NCBI GenBank assembly: GCA_948469315.1
Contig: CAOKLQ010000003.1
Span: 80,007 to 144,006, forward strand
Direction: 5' to 3'
Origin: an uncultured Clostridium sp.
GTDB lineage: Bacteria; Bacillota; Clostridia; TANB77; CAG-508
Length of the DNA stretch: 64,000 nt
Of this stretch, positions 34,151 to 55,864 are shown in pieces; within the stretch, counting starts at the first letter, position 1; each line of letters opens with the position of its first letter. Made by a program: the position numbers and the translations under genes. The notes under the pieces were generated by a model. The model was not told the DNA's origin. It saw only the letters and a program-made list of their open reading frames with translations, and searched no databases.

Positions 34151-34369
34151 ATATCATATTAATTATAATACTACAATATCAGTAGTTTGTCAATACAATT
34201 TTTTTCTAAGTTTCAAGATCAAATTTCTAATTTTTATTTAAATAATCCTTATATTTATTTTTCTTCCTTAAAATAGTTTATCTTTATAAATTTTTACTTG
34301 TTCTATCATATGTCCAATATTGCCTTCTCCTGCAAATTGGATTTAGGTCAGTTATTTAGACACATATTT

Positions 34370-35240
34370 TCACACTTTTTTATAAAGATTATGCCGTTTT
34401 TTCATAGTATAATCTTTCTTTTCATTCGGTGTTATATATCCTAAACTACTATGTATTCTTTTGTTATTATACCAACTTTCTATAAATTCAAATATTGCTA
34501 ATCTTGCTTCTTCAAATGTTATGTATCTTCTTTGATTTACTTCTTCTTTCTTTAATATGGCATTGAAGCTTTCCATACTTGCATTATCATATGGATATCC
34601 CTTTTTTACTATATGAATGCTTTATATTTAATGTTTTTAATAACTCTTCATAATCATTTGATGTGTATTGACTTCCTAAATCTGAATGAAATACCATTCC
34701 TTCTTCTATTCCTACATTACATACAGCATTGTTTAATGCTTGTATTACTAAATTTGCTGTCATATGCTTTCCATATGAGTATCCTATTATTTTTAAATCA
34801 TATAAATCCATTACTATTGCTAAATATGTCCATCCTATTTCTTTTGTATAAATATATGTTATATCTCCAACCCATTTTTCCTTTGACTTTATTGCATTCA
34901 AATTTTGTTCTAATAAGTTGGGTTTATTTGTATCATCTACTCTTTTATTTTCAGCATAATTATATTTTTTCACTACTATACTTCGTATTCCTAGTTTTCT
35001 CATCCTTCTTGCTACTCGCTTTTGACTTGTTTTTGTTCCTTTACTTGCTAGTACCTTCTGTATTTTGGGTGATCCATATCTTCTTTTTGATTCAGTATAT
35101 ATTTCCAGTATTTTTTTGTCTAATTCTTTATTATTTTCCTTATATCTGTTTGTTTTGTTATTTTTGTGATAGTAATATACTGAATGATGTATTCCCATAC
35201 ATTTGCATAAAAGTCCTATGCTGTGTTTATCTTTCATCAT
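34370..35240 (-). pseudogene. IS3-family transposase orfB (integrase core), broken by a frameshift in a G-run near 34578
   Basis: 217-aa ORF (..HSDLGSQYTS..) and 68-aa ORF (MESFNAILKKEE..RIHSSLGY) are the two halves of one rve-domain protein. The aaaaaaggg run carries one extra base. A CGG at 34391-34393 in the distal fragment is in frame. Confidence 0.7.
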
Positions 35241-35256
35241 ATCAATAAATTTTATT

Positions 35257-35541
35257 TTATCTTCTATTTTTGTGTGAATATGACCATTGCTTTTTTAATA
35301 TTTCATTTTCTTCTTGTAATCTCATATTTTCTTTTTTTAGTTTTAATAATTCATCATTATTTGTTATTAATCCTGTTTCTGTCTTTACTTTTCCATATTT
35401 TTTTATCCAATTATATATTAACTTTTTTTCTAGGTCATATTCACTTACTAATTCTGCTACTTTTTTCCCTGATTCGTACAAGGCTACTATTGTTTTCTTA
35501 TATTCTTCTGTATAACTGTTATATTGTTTACTCATACACAC
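35257..35541 (-). CDS. IS3-family transposase orfA (HTH plus leucine zipper)
   Basis: 94 aa; HTH region then a heptad Leu/Lys-rich C-terminus; 3' end overlaps orfB. Confidence 0.75.
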   Translation of the reverse strand: MCMSKQYNSYTEEYKKTIVALYESGKKVAELVSEYDLEKKLIYNWIKKYGKVKTETGLITNNDELLKLKKENMRLQEENEILKKQWSYSHKNRR

Positions 35542-35619
35542 TTACCTCTTTTCTGTTTTTATTTTAACATCTTTTTTTGTAAGTGTAAAATTTTGTGTCT
35601 ATATTTCTATTCTAATACC

Positions 35620-35715
35620 ATTTTCACATTCACTAAATGAACTTTTTTCTAAAAATTAAGTACACTTGGTGAACTAAATCTAAAATATTTTATAAAAATC
35701 GAGTACACTCGGTTT
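35620..35715. repeat. partial copy (R0) of the palindromic 16-mer repeat family seen at 40905-41170 and 48580-48760
   Basis: agtacacttggtgaact and aaaatcgagtacactcgg (about 18 nt identical to 41046-41066) abut the IS right end and overlap the stop of the truncated ATPase ORF. Confidence 0.55.
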
Positions 35716-35926
35716 GAATTTCTTCTACATTTACATCATTTTTTTCAATTTTAACTACACCTTTTCCATCGTCAAAAAATATGTCAAGTGCTTCTAAAAT
35801 CGTTGATTTTCCTACATCATTTTTTCCAACAAATACAGTTAAATCATCAAATTTTATTTCTACTTCTTCCCTATATCCTCGAAAGTTTTTTATTTTTACT
35901 GATACAATTTTCATTTTCTTCTCCAT
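35690..35926 (-). pseudogene. N-terminal fragment (78 aa) of an OLD/AAA_15-type ATPase
   Basis: MKIVSVKIKNFRGYREEVEIKFDDLTVFVGKNDVGKSTILEALD is a typical OLD-family or SMC-like ATPase N-terminus with Walker A; the ORF ends inside the R0 repeat, so the rest of the gene is missing. Confidence 0.6.
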
Positions 35927-53347: not shown

Positions 53348-53373
53348 ATTTTTCCTCCTTGCAGTAACTACTT

Positions 53374-53868
53374 TTATACTTTTAACAAGTATATATTTCT
53401 CAAATAATCTCCCAAATTAGTAGTTTTTATAATTTTTGCACCTGTATATTCTGTTGCTTTATTTGATGCAATGTTATCTGGATGAACTGTTATTACTGCA
53501 TATTCATAATCCATTTCTTTTAACTTTGATATTAGTATATCTTCTAAATGTTTCATAATTCCTTTATTCCTATATTCTTCTAATACTAAATAACCTCCAA
53601 ATTCAGCCATCTTATTATTGTTCATATTCAATATTTCTTTTATTTCTGCTGTATATGATTCATCCAAATATAATTGTGCTGTTCCTACTAATTTTTCTTC
53701 ATCCCAAGCACCATAAGTAATGATTTTATCTCCATTAAACATATCTTCTAACTCTTCTTCAGTAAACGGCATAAAAAATTCTTTTCTTTCTAAATTTTCT
53801 AATACTGTATCTATTAATTCTTTTAATTGTTGTTTTTCCTCTACTCTTATTTCTCTATAACTAATCAT
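53374..53868 (-). CDS. GNAT-family N-acetyltransferase
   Basis: 164 aa; acetyl-CoA binding motif A region (LVLEEYRNKGIMKHL). Confidence 0.7.
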   Translation of the reverse strand: MISYREIRVEEKQQLKELIDTVLENLERKEFFMPFTEEELEDMFNGDKIITYGAWDEEKLVGTAQLYLDESYTAEIKEILNMNNNKMAEFGGYLVLEEYRNKGIMKHLEDILISKLKEMDYEYAVITVHPDNIASNKATEYTGAKIIKTTNLGDYLRNIYLLKV

Positions 53869-53984
53869 ATTCTCTCCTCATTATAATATTTATGTCTAAT
53901 TTATATCACAACTTTACAATTTTTCATAGTGTTTTACCAATATTTACAAAACATATTTATCCTTACATTTGCTTAAGTGCCTTA

Positions 53985-54165
53985 AAATCTCCAATAGAAA
54001 TAATGTCAAGAGCGAGTGATAACGAGTTTATTTACTCTTGATATTATTTTTATTGGAGATTAAAATTGCTTTGCAAATGTTATAGGACGAATTTTCTCAT
54101 TTTTTCGTCCTATTAATTTTTATAAGACGAATTTCATTAAATTTTCGTCCTATAAAAAATAAGTA
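53985..54165. promoter_or_regulatory. three consecutive long hairpins/palindromes upstream of the GNAT operon and next to the rumA junction
   Basis: tccaatagaaataatgtcaagag..ctcttgatattatttttattgga; ataggacgaattttctcattttttcgtcctat; taagacgaatttcattaaattttcgtcctata. Confidence 0.45.
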
Positions 54166-54490
54166 TCAGCACATATCTACTGACACCCATTTAATAAAGA
54201 TTCTCTATAACTCATTTTAATAAATTTCTTCTAATACTTGAAATATCTTGCTTTATTTCATATCTACTAACCCACACAACCTATACCTGTTATGCTTATG
54301 GTAAATACAATCTCAAATTTTCTAGTATTTAAAACGCTTTGCTCAATTTTCTAAAAATTAATTTATGTGTTTCCACTTACCACTTAATCAACTACTTTAA
54401 CTTTCACACCCAAATTTTGATGTTTTTCTTTCCCGAATCTGCCTTTTTCTTCAAAAGTTATAATCTCTGAAACTATATTAAAATCAAGTA

Positions 54491-55864
54491 TTACCTTTCC
54501 TCTTTTAATTGTAGCACCGCAACACATTCCACGTGGCTTGTATATGGAAACATATCTACTGGCTGAATTTGCTTTATTTGATATTCTTCTTCAAATTTTG
54601 CTAAATCCCTTATTAATGTTGCTGGATTGCAACTTATGTATATGCATCTATTAGGCTTTATTTTTAATATATTTTGTATTGTTGTATCATCCAATCCTTT
54701 TCTTGGTGGATCTACTATTATTACATTTGGTATTACTTTTTGATTATTTATCAAATCATCTAAAATATCTTTTGCATCTCCTGCTATAAATTTTACATTT
54801 TGTATATTATTTATTTTAGCATTTTGTTTTGCATCTTTTATTGCATCTTCTACTATTTCTACACCATATACTTTTTTTGCATATTCTGCCATAAATATTG
54901 ATATTGTACCGACTCCACAATATAAATCAAATACTATATCTTGTTTGGTTATTTTAGCTTGTTTGATTCCTATATTATATATTTTTTCAGCTTGTATTGG
55001 ATTTATTTGATAAAACGATAATGGAGATATTTTAAACTTATATTTCCCTAAAATATCTTCTATATAATCTTGTCCATATATATTAATATTTTCATTTCCC
55101 ATTATAACATTTGTATTTTTTGTATTTATATTTTTTATTATACTTTTTATATTTTTGAATTTAGATATAATCTCTTGTATTAACTTATCTTGCTTTTCTA
55201 TTGTTCTTCCATTTATTACCAATATACACATTATTTGTTTTGTCCTTATTCCCGTTTTTATTACTATATGTCTAAATAGTCCTTTACCTGTTTCTTCATT
55301 ATATATTGATATATTGTTTTTCTTTATAAACTCAAATATATATTTAGCTATTTCTTCAGCACTTTTGTTTTGTATAAAACACTTTTGCATTGGTATTATT
55401 TCATGACTTCTTCTTGCAAATACTCCTATTACTGGATTATTTTGTTTGCCTATTCCTAAAGGATATTGTGCTTTATTACGATAATGAAGCGGATTTTCCA
55501 TTCCTATCATTTCTTTTACTTTTATCTTATTTTTTAGACCTTTATTTACTAGATTTTGTACAATATTTTGTTTTAGTTTTAGTGTTTGATTATAATTTAT
55601 GTGTCTTAAATTACAACCTCCACATCTCCTATAGCTTTGACAATCTTCTTGTATTCTATCTTTAGATACTTTTAATATTTCAATAATTTTCCCATATGCA
55701 TGTGATGTTAAAACTTTTACTATTAGTATTTTTACTCTTTCGCTCTTTATTGCTCCTGGGATAAATATAGTAAAGCCATCTATTTTTGCAATTCCTTCAC
55801 CTTCAAAACCATTATCTATAATATCTACTATATATTTTTTATTTTTTTGTATTTTATTTTCCAT
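54491..55864 (-). CDS. rumA: 23S rRNA (uracil-C5)-methyltransferase RumA/RlmD (TRAM + SAM methyltransferase)
   Basis: 457 aa; N-terminal TRAM domain, 4Fe-4S Cys cluster (C..CGGCNL..) and class I SAM-MTase motifs (DLYCGVGTISI, DPPRKG); the last 8 codons contain the 24-bp repeat. Confidence 0.85.
   Translation of the reverse strand: MENKIQKNKKYIVDIIDNGFEGEGIAKIDGFTIFIPGAIKSERVKILIVKVLTSHAYGKIIEILKVSKDRIQEDCQSYRRCGGCNLRHINYNQTLKLKQNIVQNLVNKGLKNKIKVKEMIGMENPLHYRNKAQYPLGIGKQNNPVIGVFARRSHEIIPMQKCFIQNKSAEEIAKYIFEFIKKNNISIYNEETGKGLFRHIVIKTGIRTKQIMCILVINGRTIEKQDKLIQEIISKFKNIKSIIKNINTKNTNVIMGNENINIYGQDYIEDILGKYKFKISPLSFYQINPIQAEKIYNIGIKQAKITKQDIVFDLYCGVGTISIFMAEYAKKVYGVEIVEDAIKDAKQNAKINNIQNVKFIAGDAKDILDDLINNQKVIPNVIIVDPPRKGLDDTTIQNILKIKPNRCIYISCNPATLIRDLAKFEEEYQIKQIQPVDMFPYTSHVECVAVLQLKEER
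54515..54538. repeat. 24-bp direct repeat (att-like core) inside the rumA 3' end
   Basis: Identical to 46420-46443. Confidence 0.8.

What the first reader, a model, noticed from the sequence alone, without database searches (positions are those of the whole stretch)
34338..54538. About 20-kb composite accessory island between a tRNA cluster and the 3' end of rumA, with a 24-bp direct repeat bounding an ~8.1-kb serine-recombinase element
The exact 24-mer caccgcaacacattccacgtggct occurs at 46420-46443 (the last codons of the intact large serine recombinase, ..CEPRGMCCGDG*) and at 54515-54538 (the last codons of rumA, ..TSHVECVAVLQLKEER*). Both are in the same orientation. This is the expected picture for attL/attR cores of an element integrated into the rumA 3' end by a serine recombinase, with element sequence reconstituting the rumA C-terminus. 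Distal to it lie a second, truncated recombinase module and an AbiL-like module, then an IS3 element and the tRNA-Gln/His/Leu cluster. This looks like tandem accretion of integrative elements at one hotspot. GC content and the palindrome families change at the boundaries. tmRNA lies only about 900 bp beyond rumA.
Basis: partly seen in the sequence, partly recalled or inferred. Interest (0 to 1): 0.7.

Follow-up and report, generated by a model that had tools for sequence, protein, structure and literature searches.

The report
Serine-recombinase islands stacked at rumA
An 8.1-kb mobile element carrying its own serine recombinase sits in the tail end of the rRNA-methylase gene rumA, first in a row of four such elements, and its way of inserting (swapping the last codons of rumA and of its own recombinase gene) is already described for streptococcal elements, so it is a new example of a known mechanism.

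Summary
The exact 24-mer occurs twice (46420-46443, 54515-54538), on the same strand, 8,095 bp apart, with none expected by chance. One copy lies in the last codons of an intact large serine recombinase (LSR) and the other in the last codons of rumA.

The att core lies inside the LSR gene. The last 41 codons of the LSR, a conserved beta-hairpin tail, now sit next to rumA in another frame (54514->54384). Rejoining the two ends gives a 615-aa LSR that matches many full-length database proteins end to end.

The island is an array of four modules:
- E2, intact.
- E1a, a module of a sister type whose LSR has been deleted.
- E1b, whose LSR is truncated.
- E0, a remnant cut by an IS3.

Related modules in gut Clostridiaceae MAGs carry defence genes and no transfer genes.

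This architecture is published for streptococcal ICEs/IMEs, vanG elements and CTn5: a rumA target, the att site inside the serine integrase gene, swapped C-termini, and accretion.

Verdict: real, correctly read, and a new member of a known kind. I found no empty site or excised circle for this species.

The parts
54491..55864 (-). rumA (rlmD), the 23S rRNA U1939 methyltransferase gene and the integration target. By inference, its last 11 codons (CVAVLQLKEER, 54527->54491 with the stop) are supplied by element E2.
   Evidence: TIGR00479 rumA, 431 bits. Pfam tRNA_U5-meth_tr plus TRAM. Identity step at the core against L006.
54515..54538 (-). Core of junction J0 (attR: rumA | E2 right end). On the minus strand it reads AGCCACGTGGAATGTGTTGCGGTG and encodes S-H-V-E-C-V-A-V of RumA. 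The inferred crossover GA is at 54529-54528.
   Evidence: Exact 24-mer. The GA crossover is inferred from the published GA target at the same Glu codon (PMC4120198).
54384..54514 (-). Detached 3' end of the E2 recombinase gene (tail type I). In the LSR frame, +1 relative to rumA, it reads ATIKRGKVILDFNIVSEIITFEEKGRFGKEKHQNLGVKVKVVD*.
   Evidence: Joining LSR, core and this segment gives a 615-aa ORF. Database LSRs of 615-633 aa cover it 100%. The tail domain is also present in homologs at 53% identity. It is predicted as a beta-hairpin after a disordered linker.
53374..53868 (-). E2 cargo: GNAT acetyltransferase.
   Evidence: Pfam Acetyltransf_1, E 1.4e-11.
52823..53347 (-). E2 cargo: SET-domain protein.
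   Evidence: Pfam SET, E 4.2e-15.
51937..52863 (-). E2 cargo: RimK-like ATP-grasp ligase.
   Evidence: Pfam RimK, E 1.2e-31.
51057..51599 (+). E2: PemK/MazF-like protein, on the opposite strand. A PemK-family gene holds this position in related modules, and L020-L022 carry this same gene next to the 664-aa gene.
   Evidence: Pfam PemK_toxin, E 2.5e-11. PHROG MazE/MazF-like. PemK-family gene at the same position in L014, L015-17 and L025; same gene in L020-22.
48890..50959 (-). E2 'defence slot': a 689-aa ORF of unknown family. The likely true start is M26, giving 664 aa.
   Evidence: No hit in Pfam, PADLOC, NCBIfam or PHROGs. 37 homologs, none annotated. AF2 pLDDT 83; best PDB fold match RdgC at E 5e-6, weak FokI.
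48431..48873 (-). Conserved non-coding control region of E2. It holds four 17-bp palindromes AGTWCACNNNGTGWACT (48581-48722), a promoter-like site (48524->48496) and a terminator-like hairpin (48458->48438).
   Evidence: Conserved across loci. Palindrome count 9 against 0.01 expected. Promoter and hairpin scan. No Rfam family.
48204..48389 (-). Small 61-aa ORF directly upstream of the LSR. It is conserved in related modules. Its function is unknown; it is a candidate regulator or directionality factor.
   Evidence: 87-89% identical in L010, L011 and L013; 41% identical to the copy at 40567..40743. No family hit.
46412..48136 (-). E2 large serine recombinase, 574 aa as integrated. The body is intact (catalytic motif ARVST, Resolvase, Recombinase and Zn-ribbon domains). 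The C-terminus has been replaced by G-D-G-stop after the core.
   Evidence: Pfam. PHROG integrase, E 9e-141. 88-90% identical homologs.
46420..46443 (-). Core of junction J1 (attL of E2: LSR 3' end | right end of module E1a). The inferred GA is at 46434-46433.
   Evidence: Exact 24-mer. The flank distal to it is not tail-like. It matches the right end of a B-type element in L025.
43177..46419 (-). Module E1a, a sister-type ('B-type') element whose LSR has been deleted. It comprises a non-tail right end (46419->46237), RhuM/Fic (45169..46125, PADLOC PDC-S23), a GH2 glycosidase (43332..45092) and an ~70-nt remnant of a B-type LSR 3' end (43262->43190).
   Evidence: Window 46721-46237 is 82% identical to L025 3466-3980. 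Window 43262-43172 is 80% identical to L025 11786-11876, which lies just after the stop of LSR P0119. Pfam and PADLOC.
43010..43182 (-). Junction J2: a third core (CACGTGGAGTGTTGCTCGGTGC, inferred GA at 43176-43175) followed by tail type II (GAISKRYDTIVEFTAFEDFISFERKGKNKIKRVENNKIRVTIEVDMVCGVV*). This is the right end of module E1b. The other frame reads THVECCSVLYLKDTIQ*, a RumA-type C-terminus.
   Evidence: ~90% nt identity to the rumA ends of L003, L004 and L005. tblastn tail II, 90%.
39676..42913 (-). Rest of module E1b: a 478-aa HD-like protein (41477..42913), a control region with four palindromes (40912-41075), a small 58-aa ORF (40567..40743), and an LSR truncated at codon 272 (39676..40494). 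LSR homology stops at 39679.
35643..39684 (-). Module E0 remnant. It comprises an aldehyde dehydrogenase segment (38146-39684, gene 38159..39526) fused by deletion to the truncated LSR, AbiLi (36530..37780), AbiLii (35935..36543), an AAA_15 gene fragment (35690..35926) and leftover palindromes of a control region (35659-35675, 35686-35713).
   Evidence: 93.7% nt identity to the cargo of the related element in L020/L021. PADLOC AbiLi E 1.2e-64, AbiLii E 1.2e-8. Palindromes.
34370..35541 (-). IS3-family element (orfA 35257..35541; orfB split into 34587..35240 and 34370..34576). It ends the array where the E0 recombinase module would be.
   Evidence: Pfam HTH_Tnp_1, rve, rve_2/rve_3.
33791..34150 (-). 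tRNA-Gln, tRNA-His and tRNA-Leu cluster, the chromosomal flank of the island.
   Evidence: ARAGORN and Rfam.

Best explanation
Window 46434-54528 is an 8,095-bp integrative element (E2) of the family whose single large serine recombinase targets rumA.

Shown by sequence:
- The two 24-mers are the cores of attR (rumA | element) and attL (recombinase gene | next module).
- The core covers the conserved RumA motif S-H-V-E-C-V-A-V.
- The att core lies inside the recombinase ORF, in a variable, probably disordered linker.
- In the integrated state the gene is cut there. rumA is finished by 11 element codons. The recombinase ends after three foreign codons. Its last 41 codons, a conserved beta-hairpin tail, lie 8 kb away beside rumA in another frame.
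- Rejoining the ends restores a 615-aa ORF that matches full-length relatives.

Inferred:
- The recombinase cuts both partners at the GA of the Glu codon and swaps the halves, as published for streptococcal rumA elements.
- E2 entered a rumA that was already followed by older modules, so the island grew by repeated insertion at the rumA-proximal att site.
- Later deletions and an IS3 disabled the three older modules.

Each module follows the same plan: right end, accessory genes, a PemK-like gene on the opposite strand, a defence-type gene, a palindrome-rich control region, a small ORF, and the recombinase. No module carries conjugation or phage genes, so transfer between cells must depend on something else. 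Whether E2 can still excise, and what the loss of the tail does to the enzyme, is not known.
For: - Exact 24-mer twice, 0 expected by chance.
- LSR and rumA identities.
- The rejoined junction gives a 615-aa ORF.
- LSRs of 615-633 aa (P0001-5, 8, 11, 15, 17, 68, 72, 75, 76) cover it 100% including the tail. Others of 563-606 aa stop just after the core, with heterogeneous short ends.
- Homologs at 53% identity (P0114-120) have the same tail.
- The LSR frame stays open in all 9 type II tail copies. It shows the most third-position variation (15 against 10 and 9) and the best synonymous:non-synonymous ratio (139:248 against 113:293 and 68:317).
- Identity step at the core: 72.7-73.7% in rumA against 90.7% in the first 150 nt after it. 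LSR 87.7% nt while the rumA 3' part is 71.9%.
- Empty rumA-rpsO-pnp in L008.
- The flank beyond attL is not a tail. It is the right end of a sister-type element also seen in L025.
- A third core plus tail II at 43.2 kb matches the rumA ends of L003-L005.
- Tandem arrays with the same junction grammar occur in L011-L017 and L025.
- Published precedent for every step: PMC4701971, PMC4120198, PMC5704250.
Against: - No genome of the same species with an empty site and no circular junction was found. The look-ups returned only short or identical contigs, and the 24-mer is absent from the JGI metagenome and IMG/VR collections.
- The crossover cannot be placed within the 24 bp from this sequence. There is no dyad symmetry around the proposed GA.
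- None of the six contigs tested had exact terminal overlaps. The full-length ORFs whose contexts were examined lie at tandem junctions or on contig fragments.
- The attL junction is shared as a unit with L025 at 82%. E2 plus E1a may therefore have arrived together rather than by separate insertions.
- Many relatives carry a stop codon made with the crossover GA itself (..EPC*, CCATGTT|GA), so the tail may be dispensable.
- No directionality factor has been identified.
- The E2 recombinase starts with TTG.
Confidence: 0.85

Rival explanations
1. The array is a fossil. E2 and its neighbours were inherited, or acquired, as one composite block. E2 is no longer mobile because its recombinase lost its tail and no directionality factor is present. 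The 24-mers are relics of old events, not working att sites.
For: - The LSR-core-flank junction J1 is conserved as a unit in L025 at 82% over 518 nt.
- Three of the four modules are visibly disabled.
- No circular form or empty site was found.
- Tail-less alleles with a stop at the crossover are common in chromosomal arrays.
Against: - The E2 recombinase body is intact and 88-90% identical to many relatives in hosts whose rumA is only 60-70% identical. This argues for recent horizontal movement.
- Both cores are perfect over 24 bp, although these positions vary among relatives.
- The same PemK plus 664-aa cargo occurs at 96-98% nt identity with different accessory genes in L020-L022.
Confidence: 0.25
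2. The repeat arose by duplication or homologous recombination between two rumA-like sequences, or by chance. No site-specific recombination was involved.
For: A 24-bp identity is far more than a serine recombinase needs (2 bp), and no dyad symmetry is seen around the proposed crossover.
Against: - No chance occurrence in shuffles.
- One copy is in the 3' end of a recombinase gene whose missing tail lies exactly beside the other copy, in frame once joined.
- The same grammar recurs at every junction in eight or more unrelated contigs.
- Direct repeats of 2-21 bp are reported for this family.
Confidence: 0.03
3. E2 is a decayed piece of a larger conjugative element or prophage, not a small element in its own right.
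For: Known rumA-targeting serine integrases are mostly on 16-71-kb ICEs. E2 has no transfer genes.
Against: About ten related modules in independent contigs have the same 6-10-kb layout between consecutive cores. Their cargo is accessory or defence-type genes, and none has a conjugation, relaxase or phage structural gene.
Confidence: 0.05

Closest known systems
Streptococcal ICEs/IMEs with a single serine integrase that target rumA (e.g. ICE_Spy2096_rumA, IME_SpnAP200_rumA; Ambroset et al. 2016, PMC4701971; Guedon et al. 2017, PMC5704250)
   Same: - One LSR gene at the element end.
- One direct repeat in rumA and the other inside the integrase gene (2-21 bp reported, 24 bp here).
- Reciprocal swap of the 3' parts of rumA and int, with a frame change.
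- Tandem accretion with decayed neighbours.
   Different: - The host is an uncultured, 25%-GC gut Clostridiaceae.
- The element is only 8.1 kb and has no conjugation or mobilisation gene.
- Cargo is accessory or defence-type genes.
- Sequence relatedness of the recombinase to the streptococcal ones was not tested.
vanG and ICE-r elements in rumA of S. agalactiae, S. anginosus, E. faecalis and Roseburia (Srinivasan et al. 2014, PMC4120198), and CTn5 of C. difficile re-inserting in rumA (cited in PMC4701971)
   Same: - Target at the conserved Glu codon near the rumA end. The wild-type GBS end is ECVALLQRSKG; here it is ECVAVLQLKEER.
- The recombinase gene at the element end lacks its own stop.
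- The other element end is read as a continuation of rumA.
- Two elements sit side by side at the same site.
   Different: - Those elements are 16-71 kb and conjugative-like, with only GA as the direct repeat and 101-115 element codons fused to rumA.
- Here 11 codons finish rumA, and the tail is read in the recombinase frame.
Myxophage Mx8 IntP/IntX (attP inside the integrase gene; Magrini et al. 1999, as cited in PMC4701971). From my own knowledge: SSV1-type archaeal integrases, which are split by integration.
   Same: The att site lies inside the element's own recombinase gene, so the integrated and excised forms encode different C-termini.
   Different: Those are tyrosine recombinases, with unrelated chemistry and att structure. 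For Mx8 the shortened form is known to be less active; nothing is known here.
SCCmec and other SCC elements (Ccr large serine recombinases inserting in the 3' end of rlmH/orfX). This comparison rests on my own knowledge.
   Same: - An island carrying only an LSR, with no transfer genes.
- Insertion in the 3' end of a 23S rRNA methyltransferase gene that stays functional.
- Direct repeats of 15-20 bp.
- Composite tandem arrays with recombinase-less neighbours.
   Different: - Different target gene.
- Ccr genes are internal and are not split by integration.
- The recombinase here scores far below the Ccr family cutoffs (131 against 900 bits).

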